NCBI RefSeq assembly: GCF_000026545.1
Contig: NC_011601.1
Length of the DNA stretch: 64,000 bases
Source of the DNA: Escherichia coli O127:H6 str. E2348/69
GTDB taxonomy: Bacteria; Pseudomonadota; Gammaproteobacteria; Enterobacterales; Enterobacteriaceae
Direction: 5' to 3' (one strand)
Shown: positions 2,632 through 47,143 of the stretch, one piece after another
How the letters are laid out: each line of letters opens with the position of its first letter
How positions within the stretch are numbered: position 1 is the stretch's first letter
Made by a program: the position numbers and the translations under genes
Notes under the pieces: generated by a model
Told to the model about the DNA's origin: nothing
The model's input: the letters and a program-made list of their open reading frames with translations, nothing else
Databases searched by the model: none

Positions 2632-2720
2632 TGTAGGCCTGATAAGACGCTATCAGCGTCGCATCAGGCATCCTGCTCAAATGCCGGATGCGGCGTAAAC
2701 GCCTTATCCTGCCTACAAAT
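2632..2720. repeat. REP/BIME palindromic repeat cluster between yiiM and cpxA
   Basis: Tandem REP-type sequences (TAGGCCTGATAAGACGC...GCATCAGGC; GCCGGATGCGGCGTAAACGCCTTATC). Confidence 0.75.
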
Positions 2721-7693: not shown

Positions 7694-7793
7694 AGGCCTG
7701 ATGCGCTTCGCTTATCAGGCCTACATGAATTCTGTAATCTATTGAATTTGCAAACTTTTGTAGGCCGGATAAGGCGTTTGTGCCGCATCCGGC
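7694..7793. repeat. REP/BIME repeat cluster downstream of pfkA
   Basis: AGGCCTGATGCGCTTCGCTTATCAGGCCTAC and TGTAGGCCGGATAAGGCGTTTGTGCCGCATCCGGCA REP units in inverted orientation. Confidence 0.75.
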
Positions 7794-20917: not shown

Positions 20918-21448
20918 TTACGCTTTGTAGCTTAATTCTTCGATGGTGTGGAAATGGTTGGTATAGATGCAAATGTCGCCTGCAATATCCAACGCCTTTT
21001 CAGCAATTTCACGGGCGCTAAGTTCAGTGTTTTCTAACAGCGCGCGCGCCGCAGCCTGGGCGTAAGGGCCGCCAGAGCCGATAGCAATAAGATCGTTTTC
21101 TGGCTGCACCACGTCACCGTTACCGGTGATGATAAGCGATGCAGTTTCATCCGCGACTGCCAGCAGTGCTTCAAGTTTGCGCAGCATGCGATCGGTACGC
21201 CAGTCTTTCGCCAGCTCAACGGCGGCTTTGACCAGATGGCCCTGATGCATTTCCAGTTTACGTTCAAACAGTTCGAACAGCGTAAAAGCATCCGCAGTAC
21301 CGCCCGCAAAGCCCGCGATGACTTTGTCGTTGTACAGACGGCGGACCTTTTTCACGTTGCCTTTCATTACGGTATTGCCCAACGTGGCCTGACCATCACC
21401 AGCGATGACCACATGGCCGTTACGGCGTACGCTTACTATAGTTGTCAC
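20918..21448 (-). CDS. hslV: ATP-dependent protease peptidase subunit HslV
   Basis: 176-aa [23 protein letters not shown] (N-terminal Thr nucleophile after Met). Confidence 0.96.
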
Positions 21449-21540
21449 GAGCTGACCCCTTGGTTACGAATACAGAGTACAAACCCCGTACAAAAGTACG
21501 GGGCATAATGCAATTATAGATGGGGGGGATTTTGAGGGTT

Positions 21541-23697: not shown

Positions 23698-26055
<2,358 letters not shown>

Positions 26056-26059
26056 TTAG

Positions 26060-26311
<252 letters not shown>

Positions 26312-44061: not shown

Positions 44062-44248
44062 CTGTTTCGTCCGTGAAAAAATATTCACAGATTCGACCTT
44101 CAGGGCTAACGATTGTTCTGTGGAGAAAATGTCCAGAAGCGGATAAAAAAAACCGAACAAGGTGGAAGTTTCAGATTACTGGCACAGCGTGCCGGATACG
44201 GCGTGATGAACTGCACCCCAAATGTTGGACATAATCTGACATCTGAAG

Positions 44249-44779
44249 GTGCAGTTTATGAAACATTCATTTGAAGTAAAACTTGCCGCTGTAAATCATT
44301 ACCTGGCTGGTCATGCAGGCATCATTTCTACGGCAAAACTCTTTCAACTTTCTCACACCAGCCTCTCACACTGGATTAATCTTTTTCTTCTTCACGGTCC
44401 TCGGGCACTGGATTGCAGACACAAGCGTAGCTATTCTCCTGAAGATAAACTTTGCGTGGTTCTTTATGCTCTCGGGCATTCTGAGTCTCTACCCCGGGTA
44501 GCTGCCCGGTTTAACATTCCCAGCCACAACACGGTTAAAAACTGGATAAAAGGCTACCGCAAATCTGGTAATGAGGCCTTTATCAGGTGCAGGAAGGAGA
44601 AAAGCATGACCCGTTCTGATGATACCCATGAAAACGAGGCAAACATGACGCCGGAAGAGATGAAGAATGAGCTGCGTTATCTTCGCGCAGAAAATGCATA
44701 TCTGAAAGCCATGCAGGAGCATCTTCTGGAAAAAAAGCGCCAGGAGCTGGAGAAAAAACGAAAGTCATCCAGAGCCTGA
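44249..44779 (+). CDS. IS3-family transposase OrfA (HTH DNA-binding subunit)
   Basis: 176-aa ORF with N-terminal HTH and C-terminal leucine-zipper-like region (NELRYLRAENAYLKAMQEHL); architecture resembles IS150 InsJ. Confidence 0.8.
   Translation: MQFMKHSFEVKLAAVNHYLAGHAGIISTAKLFQLSHTSLSHWINLFLLHGPRALDCRHKRSYSPEDKLCVVLYALGHSESLPRVAARFNIPSHNTVKNWIKGYRKSGNEAFIRCRKEKSMTRSDDTHENEANMTPEEMKNELRYLRAENAYLKAMQEHLLEKKRQELEKKRKSSRA
44729..44735 (+). promoter_or_regulatory. Programmed -1 ribosomal frameshift heptamer A AAA AAG of the IS3-family element
   Basis: Heptamer lies in the orfA frame ~45 nt before the orfA stop; the -1 frame is open from here into the OrfB-like sequence. Confidence 0.65.
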
Positions 44780-45321
44780 GGTACGGACACTGCCAGTCTG
44801 ACCTGTTAAAGGCCGCAGGGCTGGCCAGAAGCACGCTGTACTACCAGCTGTCACTGCAGAAGGCTAAGGACAAGTATGCTGATGTGAAACAGCTCATAGC
44901 CTCCATCTTCCATGAACACCGGGGATGTTATGGGTACCGGCGGATCCATTGTGAGCTTCAGAAAAGAGGTCTTAAGTTCAGTGGCAAAACGGTGCGAAAA
45001 CTGATGCAACAGCTCGGCCTGAAGTCTCCTGTGCGCCTGAAGAAATACCGGTCTTACCGGGGAAATATGGGACTCGCTGCAGAAAATATCCTTCAGCGAC
45101 AGTTCAAAGCGGAAGCTCCCTGTGAGAAATGGGTGACAGATATCACCGAATTCAGGGCTGGCGGACAAAAACTGTACCTGTCCCCGATACTTGATTTGTT
45201 TAACGGGGAAATCGTGGCGTGGGAAACGGCCTGCAGGCCTACAGAGGAGCTGGTGAAGCGGATGTTAAATAAGGGGCTGGAAAGCCTTGCTGAAGGGGAG
45301 AAACCGCTGCTCCACAGTGAT
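44729..45321 (+). pseudogene. IS3-family transposase OrfB (DDE integrase core), N-terminal segment interrupted by an IS110-family insertion
   Basis: -1 frame is open from the A AAA AAG slippery site; translation ...YGYRRIHCELQKRG...KWVTDITEF...PLLHSD resembles IS150 InsK and then abruptly diverges at residue D. Confidence 0.75.
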
Positions 45322-46696
45322 AGTAATAATGCCGGTATCAGTTTTTATCATCACTCTGTTTGCTGTTTAACCAGACTGGTGTGATTACTGATGCAGTGAA
45401 GACCTTCCCGCATCCTGACTCACACAGCGATCGACCCTTTGTGTCCTGCCCTGGACCTGTCGGTTGCCGGAAGCGCCTTCATGCGAGGCGTCTCCTCACC
45501 GATGCGCGTGACTCAAGAAGGGCCTGACGGTTTGTCTCGTTACTGTCCTGTCCGGGTTATCTGTCTGGAGATTCAACTCTGTTTCCTCACAGGAGCTCTG
45601 TTATGGCAGGTAAAGTTACGGAAACCGCTGTTGTGGGTGGCGTGGATACACATAAAAATCTGCACGTTGCCGCTGTCGTAGATCAGAACAATAAAGTTCT
45701 GGGGACCCAGTTTTTCTCCACAACACGGCAAGGTTACCGGCAGATGCTGGCATGGATGACTTCGTTTGGGGCATTAAAGCGAATTGGTGTTGAGTGTACA
45801 GGCACCTATGGATCAGGTCTGCTTCGCTATTTACAGAATGCCGGGTTAGACGTTCTTGAGGTGACTGCGCCAGATCGGATGGAGCGACGCAAACGGGGTA
45901 AAAGTGACACGATTGATGCTGAATGTGCCGCTCACGCCGCATTCTCCGGAATAAGAACCGTCACACCCAAAACGCGCAATGGCATGATTGAGTCTCTGCG
46001 GGTATTAAAAACTTGCCGAAAAACAGCAATATCAGCCCGCAGAGTCGCTCTCCAGATTATCCATTCCAATATTATCTCTGCCCCGGATGAATTACGTGAA
46101 CAGCTCAGAAATATGACGCGTATGCAGCTCATCAGGACTCTGGGATCCTGGCGGCCTGATGCCAGTGAATACCGCAATGTTACCAACGTTTATCGTATTT
46201 CATTAAAGTCCCTTGCCCGACGCTATCTCGAGTTACATGACGAAATCGCTGATTTGGATGTCATGATTGCGGCAATTGTCGATGAGCTGGCGCCTGAACT
46301 GATTAAACGTAATGCTATTGGATACGAAAGCGCTTCGCAGTTGCTGATCACGGCAGGAGACAATCCCCAACGATTAAGATCAGAATCAGGTTTTGCGGCA
46401 CTGTGTGGTGTCAGCCCTGTTCCCGTATCTTCAGGAAAAACGAATCGTTATCGACTTAACCGGGGTGGAGATCGTGCTGCAAATAGTGCACTTCACATCA
46501 TTGCCATCGGACGTTTGCGAACTGACGATAAAACGAAGGAATATGTCGCCAGACGAGTAGCGGAAGGGCATACAAAAATGGAAGCAATACGCTGCCTGAA
46601 GCGCTATATCTCACGCGAAGTTTATACATTACTGCGTAATCAAAACAGGCAGATCAACAGCATCCCGATAACGGCTTGACTCTTAGAAGGGCGTCC
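45322..46696 (+). mobile_element. IS110-family insertion sequence (about 1.37 kb) nested inside the IS3-family orfB
   Basis: Boundaries inferred from the exact interruption of the IS3 OrfB reading frame (PLLHSD | QGWHYR); contains a ~280-bp non-coding left end and a single transposase gene; no terminal inverted repeats evident, as is typical for IS110 family. Confidence 0.7.
45603..46679 (+). CDS. IS110-family transposase (DEDD/RuvC-like N-terminal domain plus C-terminal transposase domain)
   Basis: 358-aa ORF MAGKVTETAVVGGVDTHKNLHVAAVVDQNNKVLG...GVECTGTYGSGL...; the VGIDxxK / ECTG motif pattern typical of IS110/IS621-type transposases. Confidence 0.85.
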   Translation: MAGKVTETAVVGGVDTHKNLHVAAVVDQNNKVLGTQFFSTTRQGYRQMLAWMTSFGALKRIGVECTGTYGSGLLRYLQNAGLDVLEVTAPDRMERRKRGKSDTIDAECAAHAAFSGIRTVTPKTRNGMIESLRVLKTCRKTAISARRVALQIIHSNIISAPDELREQLRNMTRMQLIRTLGSWRPDASEYRNVTNVYRISLKSLARRYLELHDEIADLDVMIAAIVDELAPELIKRNAIGYESASQLLITAGDNPQRLRSESGFAALCGVSPVPVSSGKTNRYRLNRGGDRAANSALHIIAIGRLRTDDKTKEYVARRVAEGHTKMEAIRCLKRYISREVYTLLRNQNRQINSIPITA

Positions 46697-47012
<316 letters not shown>

Positions 47013-47100
47013 GTGAACGCCTTATCCGGCCTACAAAAGTACGTAAATTTACTATATTGCAGAGATTGCGTAGGCCTGATAAGCGTAGCGCATCAGGCAA
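47013..47100. repeat. REP/BIME repeat cluster immediately right of the IS insertion (yijF-gldA intergenic)
   Basis: GTGAACGCCTTATCCGGCCTAC...TGCGTAGGCCTGATAAGCGTAGCGCATCAGGCA. Confidence 0.75.
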
Positions 47101-47143
47101 TTTTGCGTTCAAACTCCCGGACAAGCCGGGAGTTTGGAGTAGG

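What the first reader, a model, noticed from the sequence alone, without database searches (positions are those of the whole stretch)
45322..45602. Non-coding left end of the IS110-family element as a candidate bridge-RNA (guide ncRNA) locus
IS110-family recombinases of the IS621 type have been reported to use a structured non-coding RNA from the element's non-coding end to specify both target and donor DNA. This element has a ~280-bp non-coding stretch between its left boundary and the transposase start, the expected location in the IS110 subgroup. It contains no convincing ORF (only a short frame carried over from the interrupted IS3 orfB and small overlapping ORFs). If a bridge RNA is encoded here, its target-binding loop should be complementary to the IS3 orfB site it inserted into, which this locus lets one test directly.
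Basis: inference. Interest (0 to 1): 0.55.

Follow-up and report, generated by a model that had tools for sequence, protein, structure and literature searches.

The report
ISEc21 bridge (seek) RNA gene

Summary
A 1374-bp IS110-family element (45322-46695, + strand) interrupts IS1397 orfB. It has a 281-bp non-coding left end (45322-45602) before the transposase ATG and only 16 bp after the stop codon.

The element is ISEc21. It differs at 2 of 1374 nt from the copy used by Siddiquee et al. 2024 (PMC11187229), and the non-coding region is 100% identical. That paper showed that a transposase-bound, reprogrammable "seekRNA" from this region is needed for transposition into IS3-family DDE codons. 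Durrant et al. 2024 also list a predicted left-end bridge RNA for ISEc21.

Comparing 66 relatives and five more distant lineages adds detail:
- **Target-binding loop (45396-45482):** its guides match this insertion site in 8 of 9 and 4 of 5 positions.
- **Donor-binding loop (45508-45552):** it matches the element's right and left ends. It lies outside the published 8-179 "long seekRNA".
- **Cross-complementary triplets:** GAC and GUC are placed like IS621 handshake guides.
- **No shared core dinucleotide,** unlike IS621.

Many relatives, but not ISEc21, carry two alternative left-target guides. This copy's transposase has a D19N change.

The parts
44207..45321 (+). Left part of the host element IS1397 (IS3 family): left inverted repeat, orfA and the 5' part of orfB, ending in codons CAC AGT GAT (His-Ser-Asp, the second D of DDE)
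   Evidence: RefSeq annotation of identical loci. NCBIfam transpos_IS3. Inverted repeats read. 44207-47012 minus the insert is 1432 bp.
45313..45321 (+). Left target half-site (LT, positions -9 to -1): CACAGTGAT
   Evidence: Matches the left-target guide in 8 of 9 positions; 9 of 10 when the +1 base is included, P about 0.005 in shuffles.
45322..46695 (+). ISEc21, an IS110-family insertion sequence, 1374 bp, with no target-site duplication
   Evidence: Empty-site comparison. 1372 of 1374 nt identical to NZ_LT903847.1:1802057-1803430, the copy used in PMC11187229.
45322..45602 (+). Non-coding left end, which is the bridge/seek RNA gene (the finding)
   Evidence: 100% identical to the experimentally studied non-coding region. 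Alignment A1 and covariation.
45322..45326 (+). Right donor half-site (RD, AGTAA), the first bases of the left end, paired by the right-donor guide
   Evidence: Covaries with the right-donor guide: AGTAA with UUACU in 43 loci, AGTCA with UGACU in 20, AGCAA with UUGCU in 1. 5 of 5 pairs in the distant relatives parsed (L084, L089, L086, L085, L094); L091 only by eye.
45325..45330 (+). -10 half (AATAAT) of the promoter formed only when the right and left ends are joined in the excised circle
   Evidence: Joined sequence TTGACT-17 nt-AATAAT. The paper reports a junction promoter for ISEc21.
45335..45394 (+). 5' stem-loop
   Evidence: Single-sequence fold z = -4.42. Base helix 45337-41 with 45388-92 is paired in 99% of cells, with compensatory changes.
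45396..45482 (+). Target-binding loop (TBL) domain: outer and main stems, GAC/GUC clamps, two 13-nt loop sides and a short distal hairpin. It contains the published 58-nt minimal seekRNA (IS positions 90-147).
   Evidence: The centroid fold reproduces this architecture, z = -2.62. The main stem has 11 pairs with compensatory changes. Construct coordinates.
45423..45431 (+). Left-target guide (LTG) CACAGCGAU, same sense as the target top strand, so it pairs with the bottom strand
   Evidence: It is 'B' in Fig. 7 of PMC11187229.
45449..45453 (+). Right-target guide (RTG) CCCUG, which pairs with top-strand CAGGG/CAAGG (+1 to +5)
   Evidence: Guide position 7 covaries with target +2 (A:U 36, G:C 12, exceptions 5; Fisher 1e-7, not corrected for phylogeny).
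45454..45456 (+). Handshake-like triplet GAC in the TBL, complementary to the donor's last three bases GTC (46693-46695)
   Evidence: Triplet position 3 covaries with donor -3 (G:C 45, A:U 7; Fisher 1e-6). 3 of 3 pairs in L084, L089 and L086 with different sequences.
45485..45497 (+). Small conserved hairpin GAGG-loop-CCUC between the two loops
   Evidence: 99% paired, 2 pairs with compensatory change.
45508..45552 (+). Donor-binding loop (DBL) domain: GUGAC, a 13-nt side, the distal hairpin GACG-GUU-UGUC, a 13-nt side, then GUC. It lies outside the published long seekRNA (IS 8-179).
   Evidence: The most conserved block of the non-coding region (invariant columns). Distal hairpin covaries. 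Guide matches.
45516..45523 (+). Left-donor guide (LDG) AGAAGGGC, same sense as right-end bases -11 to -4
   Evidence: Exact 8-nt match, P about 0.011. Distant relatives have different LDGs matching their own right ends: ATAGGAGC, ATAGGGGC, AAGAGGCGC.
45540..45544 (+). Right-donor guide (RDG) UUACU, complementary to left-end bases 1-5 (AGTAA). G45545 pairs with the last base of the right end.
45545..45547 (+). Handshake-like triplet GUC in the DBL, complementary to the target's Asp codon GAY (-3 to -1)
   Evidence: GUC with GAT/GAC, GUU with AAC, GUC with GGC across lineages.
45591..45595 (+). Ribosome-binding site AGGAG for the transposase gene
   Evidence: Read; it lies 7 nt before the ATG.
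45603..46679 (+). ISEc21 transposase (DEDD/RuvC-like domain plus Transposase_20 domain), 358 aa. This copy carries D19N.
   Evidence: NCBIfam NF033542 'IS110 family RNA-guided transposase', 198 bits against a cut-off of 140. Pfam PF01548 and PF02371. D19N.
46676..46681 (+). -35 half (TTGACT) of the junction promoter, overlapping the stop codon
   Evidence: TTGACN at this position in 56 of 56 relatives.
46685..46695 (+). Left donor half-site (LD): AGAAGGGC (paired by the LDG) plus the terminal GTC
46696..46700 (+). Right target half-site (RT, +1 to +5): CAAGG (Gln-Gly codons of IS1397 orfB)
46696..47012 (+). Right part of IS1397 (3' part of orfB and the right inverted repeat)

Best explanation
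Window 45322-45602 is the guide-RNA gene of ISEc21, an IS110-subgroup insertion sequence. The + strand RNA folds into a 5' stem-loop followed by two internal-loop modules of the same design: clamp, 13 nt, short hairpin, 13 nt, clamp.

The first module is the target-binding loop, which is the published seekRNA. [quoted passage not shown] The second module is the donor-binding loop. [quoted passage not shown]

Next to each 3' guide sits a triplet complementary to the other DNA's last three bases: TBL GAC with donor GTC, and DBL GUC with target GAY. This is the arrangement of IS621 handshake guides, which stabilise the exchanged top strands.

The DEDD/Ser transposase bound to these loops recombines the circle junction with the target exactly between GAY and CAR, without duplication, which is the state seen in the window. 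Transcription most likely comes from a promoter assembled only in the excised circle (TTGACT in the right end, AATAAT in the left end). In the integrated state it may come from read-through of the host IS1397 mRNA, because the orientation is always the same.

Shown by others for this exact sequence: RNA from the non-coding region binds the transposase, is required for circle formation and transposition, and its target-matching part can be reprogrammed. Shown here: anatomy, covariation and the guide matches at this locus. Inferred: function of the donor loop and the triplets, and the source of transcription in the integrated copy.
For: - **Identity:** 1372 of 1374 nt, and 281 of 281 nt of the non-coding region, are identical to the construct source of PMC11187229. 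The experiments are summarised. Durrant et al. list ISEc21 with a predicted bridge RNA in the left end.
- **Structure:** 37 pairs are 96.0% paired, against 34-43% in slid controls. 21 pairs have compensatory changes, and 0 of 500 shuffles do as well. The single-sequence centroid fold of 45396-45482 gives the same loop architecture.
- **Target guides:** 8 of 9 and 4 of 5 positions match at this site. Insertion sites of relatives fit their own guides far better than permuted sites (0 of 5000 permutations). The right-target guide covaries with target +2.
- **Donor guides:** an exact 8-nt left-donor guide match (P about 0.011). Right-donor guide and left end covary in 3 sequence states.
- **Distant relatives:** five lineages at 46-51% transposase identity, with unrelated targets and ends, keep the scaffold and have all four guides re-matched. 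In two lineages (loci L084 and L086) the boundaries are confirmed independently by restoring TNGK and CCDGL motifs of the host transposase genes.
- **Triplets:** covariation.
- **Junction promoter:** the -35 element is present in 56 of 56 relatives.
- **Protein:** NF033542, PF01548 and PF02371.
Against: - The published transposase-associated 'long seekRNA' ends at IS position 179, and a 58-nt RNA holding only the target loop supported mini-IS movement. The donor loop has therefore not been shown to be part of a functional RNA in ISEc21.
- Within the close clade the left-donor guide and the right end are invariant. Support for that guide comes only from the exact match and from the distant lineages.
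- The left-donor guide duplex sits 1-3 nt further from the crossover than the left-target guide duplex. This is unexplained.
- The clamp helices GAC/GUC never vary, so covariation says nothing about them.
- Pairing of the right-donor guide with left-end bases 1-5 could in principle be an intramolecular RNA helix in read-through transcripts.
- Folding the whole region alone gives only z = -1.8. The donor loop alone folds differently (z = -0.65).
- No sigma-70-like promoter was found inside the integrated non-coding region.
- No Rfam family matches.
Confidence: 0.88

Rival explanations
1. Only the target-binding module (the 58-74-nt seekRNA) is a functional guide. The very conserved block 45508-45552 would be something else, such as a transposase-binding DNA site in the left end, a 5'-UTR element controlling transposase translation, or an RNA-processing signal. 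Its matches to the element's ends would be incidental or would serve intramolecular folding.
For: In PMC11187229 the RNA supplied in trans covered only IS 8-179, and a 58-nt RNA (IS 90-147) supported mCherry mini-IS movement when the donor was flanked by target sequence. The paper does not mention a donor loop. The donor loop folds poorly on its own.
Against: All four guide positions and both triplets are re-matched in five distant lineages with entirely different ends and targets. The module is a structural duplicate of the target loop. In the complementation assay the deletion (IS 20-150) left the donor-loop region in place. A later preprint shows that RNA holding only the target loop gives only partial or very inefficient transposition in two other IS110 elements.
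Confidence: 0.09
2. The guide-RNA gene is intact, but this particular copy is immobile: a fossil that can supply RNA but not active recombinase. Its transposase carries Asn instead of a conserved acidic residue (D19N) four residues after the first catalytic Asp.
For: G to A at window 45657 gives D19N. Almost every relative with a readable N-terminus has D or E at this position (GGVDTHK[D/E]). The copy at the same locus in strain UPEC132 encodes the reference protein WP_000907654.1.
Against: The change is conservative and its effect is untested. D19 is not one of the DEDD or Ser catalytic residues named for IS621. The rest of the element is identical to an active copy apart from one further nucleotide difference at IS position 800 (effect on the protein not checked). 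Trans-complementation by other copies is possible.
Confidence: 0.25
3. The 281 bp are merely a promoter and 5' UTR of the transposase gene with no guide function, and the similarity to the flanks is chance.
For: No Rfam match. The whole-region fold has a modest z-score.
Against: Published deletion, complementation, co-purification and reprogramming experiments on this exact sequence. Covariation between guides and flanks across more than 60 loci.
Confidence: 0.01

Closest known systems
ISEc21 seekRNA (Siddiquee, Pong, Hall & Ataide 2024, Nat Commun 15:5235; PMC11187229)
   Same: It is the same element: 1372 of 1374 nt are identical and the non-coding region is identical. The target is the same (codons around the second D of DDE in IS3-family transposase genes). 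The matches they call B and T are the left- and right-target guides mapped here. The minimal 58-nt RNA (IS 90-147) is the core of the target-binding loop at 45411-45468.
   Different: The paper describes only target-matching segments and an RNA ending at IS 179. Here a second module (IS 187-231) is mapped that matches the element's own ends, together with cross-complementary triplets. The window copy sits in IS1397 and carries D19N.
IS621 bridge RNA (Durrant et al. 2024, PMC11208160; Hiraizumi et al. 2024, PMC11208158)
   Same: The RNA is encoded in the left end of an IS110-subgroup element. The order is 5' stem-loop, then target-binding loop, then donor-binding loop. [quoted passage not shown] Handshake-type bases next to the 3' guides are complementary to the other DNA. 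The promoter is split between the right end (-35) and the left end (-10). The recombinase has a DEDD domain and a Transposase_20 domain.
   Different: No detectable sequence similarity: phmmer of the transposase against PDB chains finds nothing at E of 0.01 or better. There is no shared core dinucleotide: the target has A-Y and the donor T-C before the crossover, against CT in both for IS621, so no bases are duplicated. The handshake segment is 3 nt, against 2 nt in IS621. The left-donor guide duplex is offset 1-3 nt from the crossover. The target is a protein-coding catalytic motif of other transposases rather than a REP element.
IS1111-subgroup guide RNAs (ISEc11, ISKpn4, ISPa11)
   Same: Same transposase superfamily, and an RNA-guided choice of target.
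   Different: Those RNAs are encoded downstream of the transposase gene, in a long right end with subterminal inverted repeats, and the order of top- and bottom-strand matches is reversed. Here the right end is 16 bp and the RNA is upstream.
CazIS110-1 target-loop-only, donor-loop-only and full-length RNAs (Sun et al. 2025 preprint, 10.1101/2025.10.25.684509)
   Same: An abundant short RNA holding only the target loop, alongside a rarer full-length bridge RNA, would reconcile the published 74-nt ISEc21 seekRNA with the donor loop mapped here.
   Different: Different element. No RNA data for the ISEc21 donor loop were available to me.

Membership tests
ISEc21 (ISfinder name; IS110 family) | Nucleotide identity to the reference element over its full length | tested here: met
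   1372 of 1374 nt identical to NZ_LT903847.1:1802057-1803430. RefSeq names the identical gene 'IS110-like element ISEc21 family transposase'.
IS110-family RNA-guided recombinase | DEDD (RuvC-like) N-terminal domain plus Transposase_20 C-terminal domain | tested here: met
   PF01548 (residues 13-150, E = 1e-18) and PF02371 (residues 238-315, E = 5e-12). NF033542 scores 198 bits against a cut-off of 140.
IS110-subgroup bridge RNA | Guide RNA encoded in a long non-coding left end upstream of the recombinase gene, with a short right end | tested here: met
   Left end 281 bp, right end 16 bp.
IS110-subgroup bridge RNA | Target-binding internal loop: 5' side same sense as the left target flank, 3' side complementary to the right target flank | tested here: met
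   8 of 9 and 4 of 5 positions at this site. Covariation and permutation tests. Loop architecture.
IS110-subgroup bridge RNA | Donor-binding internal loop: 5' side same sense as the right-end terminus, 3' side complementary to the start of the left end | tested here: met
   AGAAGGGC is an exact 8-nt match. UUACUG is complementary to C|AGTAA, with covariation. Re-matched in distant lineages. Function not shown experimentally.
IS110-subgroup bridge RNA | Handshake guides complementary to the non-cognate DNA next to the crossover | tested here: met
   TBL GAC with donor GTC, and DBL GUC with target GAY. Covariation with Fisher 1e-6, and 3 of 3 pairs in L084, L089 and L086. This is by sequence only.
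IS621-type bridge system | Identical core dinucleotide (CT) in donor and target, duplicated at both ends of the inserted element | tested here: not met
   The target is ..GA[T/C]|CA.. and the donor ..GTC|AG.. There is no common dinucleotide at the crossover and no duplication. Only position -1 is a pyrimidine in both.
IS110-subgroup bridge RNA | Sigma-70 promoter reconstituted at the right-end/left-end junction of the circle | tested here: met
   TTGACT-17 nt-AATAAT in the joined ends. The -35 element is present in 56 of 56 relatives. Reported experimentally for ISEc21.
IS110-subgroup bridge RNA | The RNA is made, binds the recombinase and is required for recombination | not testable with these tools
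   Published for this sequence for the target-loop part. Not published for the donor-loop part.
Any Rfam RNA family | Covariance-model score at or above the gathering threshold | tested here: not met
   No match in 45100-46900 beyond chance-level miRNA and snoRNA hits at E above 5. I could not tell whether Rfam 15 holds a bridge-RNA model.
IS1111 subgroup | Long right end carrying the RNA, and subterminal inverted repeats | tested here: not met
   The right end is 16 bp and the RNA modules are upstream of the transposase gene.

The most novel reading that the evidence does not exclude
The ISEc21 clade may use a distinct variant of the bridge-RNA design that has not been described in the papers I could search.

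(a) ISEc21 itself would encode a full two-loop bridge RNA whose donor-binding loop (IS 187-231) lies outside the published seekRNA. It would have 3-nt cross-complementary handshake triplets and no shared core dinucleotide.

(b) In most clade members, though not in the window's copy, the 5' stem-loop carries a second copy of the 5' half of the target loop. Two mutually exclusive folds would then present two different left-target guides to one shared right-target guide. One element could home into two codon classes of DDE-transposase genes (His-Ser-Asp with AGY versus TCN serine codons, or Asn-Thr-Asp).

Evidence for (b): natural insertions match guide 1 better in 21 loci and guide 2 better in 18. 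Both 5' strands covary with the single 3' strand, at 92% and 95% paired.
Probability: 0.5. Interest if true: 0.65.

Novelty: already known. Interest (0 to 1): 0.3.

Why it matters
For the finding as posed, the result is a positive control. A reader working from raw sequence correctly located a guide-RNA gene, and the locus lets one read guide-target pairing directly from a natural nested insertion (ISEc21 in IS1397 in a REP cluster).

The added anatomy bears on an open disagreement in the field: the seekRNA with only a target loop against the two-loop bridge RNA, and the question 'how is donor DNA recognised without a donor loop?' raised in 10.1101/2025.10.25.684509. ISEc21 does appear to have a donor loop. 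It simply lies downstream of the RNA that was tested.

The lack of a shared core and the 3-nt handshake would matter for anyone engineering this orthologue. Dual left-target guides in relatives, if real, would be a natural example of one bridge RNA addressing two targets.

Tried and rejected
- **Rfam:** scans at gathering threshold and at E up to 10 found nothing relevant.
- **Solved structures:** phmmer of the transposase against PDB chains found no hit at E of 0.01 or better, so IS621 structures could not be aligned by sequence.
- **Whole-region MFE fold:** it pairs GCGCCUU with GAGGCGU and closes with a long-range helix. Both conflict with the conserved GAGG/CCUC hairpin and the covarying stems, so I rejected it in favour of the alignment-based structure.
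- **Alternative left-donor guide:** GGCGTC in the hairpin loop (45489-45494) equals the right-end terminus in ISEc21 but changes to GGCATC or GGCTTC in close relatives while the right end stays the same. Rejected as chance.
- **Alternative right-donor guide:** TTACTG at 45385-45390 in the 5' stem-loop is not conserved and does not covary (ATCACTG in L007, L012 and L015). Rejected.
- **Shared core dinucleotide or target-site duplication:** every register around both junctions was checked and none exists.
- **Left-target guide position 13 (C) pairing with target +1:** no covariation, so it is not claimed.
- **Promoter scan of the integrated region:** no + strand sigma-70-like site.
- **Automatic parsing:** the donor-loop 3' side failed and was redone. 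L091 still mis-parsed and was read by eye.
- **Not done:** I did not build a covariance model, because the MAFFT alignment already gave clear pair counts.
Full report
**What is in the window**

The window is E. coli chromosome. An IS3-family element, IS1397, spans 44207-47012 (+) between a REP-rich intergenic region and gldA. Its orfB is interrupted by a second element.

I joined 150 nt from each side of the proposed insert. The resulting 300-nt sequence matches intact IS1397 at 100% in a single piece in more than 1700 complete E. coli genomes. The insert is therefore exactly 45322-46695, 1374 bp, with no duplicated bases. [quoted passage not shown]

The only long ORF in the insert is 45603-46679 (358 aa). 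That leaves 281 bp of non-coding sequence on the left and 16 bp on the right. The right flank starts at 46696, not 46697.

**Identity and prior knowledge**

The protein matches NCBIfam NF033542, 'IS110 family RNA-guided transposase' (198 bits, cut-off 140). It also matches Pfam PF01548 and PF02371. RefSeq annotates identical loci as ISEc21.

ISEc21 is the IS110-type element studied by Siddiquee et al. 2024 (PMC11187229). They reported the following:
- The upstream non-coding region is needed for circle formation and transposition.
- It can be supplied in trans (IS 8-179).
- A 74-nt 'seekRNA' and a longer form co-purify with the transposase.
- A 58-nt RNA (IS 90-147) suffices in a mini-IS assay, and its target-matching part can be reprogrammed.
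- The target is the codon region around the second D of DDE in IS3-family transposase genes.

I fetched the exact genomic interval they synthesised. The window copy differs from it at 2 of 1374 positions, neither of them in the non-coding region. Durrant et al. 2024 also list ISEc21 as having a predicted bridge RNA in the left end (supplementary table).

**Structure from comparison**

A scan of one genome per species returned 80 loci encoding relatives at 67-99% identity, from alpha-, beta- and gammaproteobacteria. I aligned 66 non-coding regions from the first base of the left end to the ATG (alignment A1).

RNAalifold and my own reading give these features:
- a 5' stem-loop;
- a long covarying stem that encloses an internal loop;
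- a small GAGG/CCUC hairpin;
- a second internal-loop module.

On the MAFFT alignment, which was not fitted to any structure, the 37 proposed pairs form standard pairs in 96.0% of cells, against 34-43% when the partners are slid by 1-3 columns. 21 pairs show changes on both sides, and 0 of 500 shuffles reach the observed values. The 3-bp GAC/GUC clamps never vary, so covariation is silent on them.

Folding 45396-45482 alone gives a centroid with exactly this loop architecture (z = -2.6). The 5' stem-loop has z = -4.4. The second module alone folds differently (z = -0.65). The fold of the whole region is only mildly better than shuffles (z = -1.8 on the + strand, -0.9 on the - strand), and its MFE structure contradicts conserved helices. 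The comparative structure is the one to trust.

**The two modules share one design**
- Target module: CUGAC, UCACACAGCGAUC, GAC-loop-GUC, CUGCCCUGGACCU, GUCGG.
- Donor module: GUGAC, UCAAGAAGGGCCU, GACG-loop-UGUC, UCGUUACUGUCCU, GUCC.

**Target loop**

At this locus CACAGCGAU (45423-45431) equals the left flank CACAGTGAT in 8 of 9 positions. A match of 9 of 10, counting the +1 base, occurs in 0.5% of shuffles. CCCUG (45449-45453) pairs with 4 of 5 bases of the right flank CAAGG. Against the consensus target CACAGCGAT|CAGGG used in the paper, both are perfect.

Across relatives the guides follow the insertion sites. The mean best mismatch is 1.6 of 10, against 2.62 ± 0.15 when flanks are permuted (0 of 5000). 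Guide position 7 covaries with target +2 (A:U 36, G:C 12, 5 exceptions).

**Donor loop**

AGAAGGGC (45516-45523) is identical to right-end bases -11 to -4 (P about 0.011). UUACUG (45540-45545) is complementary to the last right-end base plus left-end bases 1-5. The left-end/guide pair exists in three covarying states (AGTAA/UUACU 43, AGTCA/UGACU 20, AGCAA/UUGCU 1).

The left-donor guide and the right end are invariant in this clade, so I looked further out. A search of cluster representatives and contig look-ups gave five lineages at 46-51% transposase identity with unrelated ends and targets. Each keeps the scaffold, and in each all four guides are re-matched to its own flanks and ends:
- left-target guide, 7-9 of 9;
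- right-target guide, 4-5 of 5, except L086, where contiguous pairing is only 2 of 5 (plus one wobble) and needs a 1-nt bulge (read by eye);
- left-donor guide, exact 8-10-nt matches (ATAGGAGC, ATAGGGGC, AAGAGGCGC);
- right-donor guide, 5 of 5 (L091 was read by eye).

In two lineages (loci L084 and L086) the boundaries are independently fixed, because joining the flanks restores conserved motifs of the host genes. These are T-N|G-K in an IS481-type integrase gene (L084) and C-C-D|G-L in an IS256-type gene (L086).

The ISEc21 donor loop (IS 187-231) lies outside the RNA tested in the paper (IS 8-179). However, their non-coding-region deletion (IS 20-150) left it in the donor plasmid. The paper does not mention a donor loop. 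A later preprint treats the seekRNA as an RNA with only the target loop, and asks how the donor is recognised without a donor loop.

**Crossover chemistry by sequence**

IS621 has a CT core in both donor and target, and its top strands are cut just 3' of it. Here the two bases before the crossover are A-Y in the target and T-C in the donor. No register gives a shared dinucleotide, and nothing is duplicated.

Next to each 3' guide is a triplet complementary to the other partner's last three bases. GAC in the target loop pairs with donor GTC. GUC in the donor loop pairs with target GAY. Three results support this:
- Triplet position 3 covaries with donor -3 in several unrelated lineages (G:C 45, A:U 7; Fisher 1e-6, not corrected for phylogeny).
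- The distant lineages show GAA with TTC, GAU with ATC, and GUU with AAC.
- This is the logic of the IS621 handshake guides, extended to 3 nt.

The left-donor guide duplex ends 1-3 nt before the crossover, whereas the left-target guide duplex reaches -1. I have no explanation for that offset.

**Expression**

Joining the ends gives TTGACT-17 nt-AATAAT. The -35 element overlaps the stop codon and is present in 56 of 56 relatives. A junction promoter was reported experimentally.

No comparable + strand promoter is found in the integrated region. The element always lies in the sense orientation of the host transposase gene, so read-through transcription is possible. That is inference.

**Verdict**

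The finding is real and correctly interpreted, but already known for this exact sequence, so the score is low. What I add is descriptive and unproven by experiment: the map of both loops in window coordinates, the donor loop beyond the published RNA, the handshake-like triplets, and the absence of a shared core.

**Side observation with the most novelty**

In 44 of 66 relatives, but not in ISEc21 and its enterobacterial kin, the 5' stem-loop contains a second copy of the 5' half of the target loop with a different left-target guide.

Natural insertions match guide 1 better in 21 loci and guide 2 better in 18. Near-identical elements (L026-L028) are found in both target classes.

The 5' strand of this extra copy pairs with the single 3' strand of the target-loop stem in 92% of cells, with compensatory changes. 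The canonical strand pairs in 95%. This suggests two alternative folds that share one right-target guide. Gene conversion between the duplicated strands is an untested alternative.

I found no description of this in the searchable literature, which covers only part of what is published.

Noticed in passing
Relatives L016, L018, L021, L023-L028, L031, L033, L040-L042, L044-L047, L050-L052, L056-L080 (alignment A1 columns 25-60); absent from window 45335-45394: Most relatives carry a second left-target-guide motif in the 5' stem-loop: stem strand, TGAC, guide, GAC. One guide is typically CACAGCGAUC or AACACCGAUC and the other CACUCYGAUC. Insertion sites match guide 1 better in 21 loci and guide 2 better in 18. 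Both 5' strands covary with the single 3' strand (92% and 95% paired). This may be a two-conformer bridge RNA that addresses two codon classes of transposase genes.
   Followed up: partly
window 45657 (codon 19 of the transposase, 45657-45659): This ISEc21 copy has G to A, giving D19N in the motif GGVDTHK-D-LH. Nearly all relatives with a readable N-terminus have D or E there. The copy at the same locus in strain UPEC132 encodes the reference protein. The effect on activity is unknown.
   Followed up: partly
window 44207-47012, and 47005-47120: Three-level nesting: ISEc21 sits inside IS1397 (1432 bp without the insert, inverted repeats TGAACTGCACCCCAAATGTTGGACA / TGTCCAGGTTTTGGGGTTCAGTTCA), which itself sits next to REP/BIME-like palindromes (gccttatccggcctac... 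gcgtaggcctgataagcg). From memory, IS1397 is known to insert into such units. Not checked here.
   Followed up: no
L084/L089 (IS481-type rve gene), L086/L087 (IS256-type Transposase_mut gene), L088 (rve gene): More distant members of the same transposase clade (46-55% identity) also sit inside other transposase genes at conserved motifs (T-N|G-K, C-C-D|G-L, and D|R-G-type CGCGG). Homing into other mobile elements' transposase genes therefore looks like a clade-wide habit, with the guides retargeted.
   Followed up: partly
L035 (906 and 2254 onward), L013, L058, L029: In some relatives the sequence just left of the left end is a right-end terminus (for example GTAGAAGGGGTC|AGTAAT), or the right end is followed directly by another left end (GGGCGTC|AGTAAAAG, GGGCGTC|AGTCAGAT). 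These could be head-to-tail tandem copies or assembled circle junctions.
   Followed up: no
window 45516-45525 versus 46685-46695: The left-donor guide match ends 3 nt before the right-end terminus (1-3 nt in distant relatives), whereas the left-target guide match runs to the last base before the crossover. The two loops are otherwise built alike. The offset is unexplained.
   Followed up: partly
window 2636-2713 (-), 7717-7758 (-), 21446-21503 (-), 26040-26092 (+): Rfam gathering-level matches elsewhere in the window: naRNA4 (REP-derived), ES036, the ClpQY promoter element and the L31 ribosomal-protein leader. These are ordinary E. coli chromosomal features. A segment of the IS1397-flanking REP region also resembles 7696-7778 (84% identity over 83 nt).
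   Followed up: no
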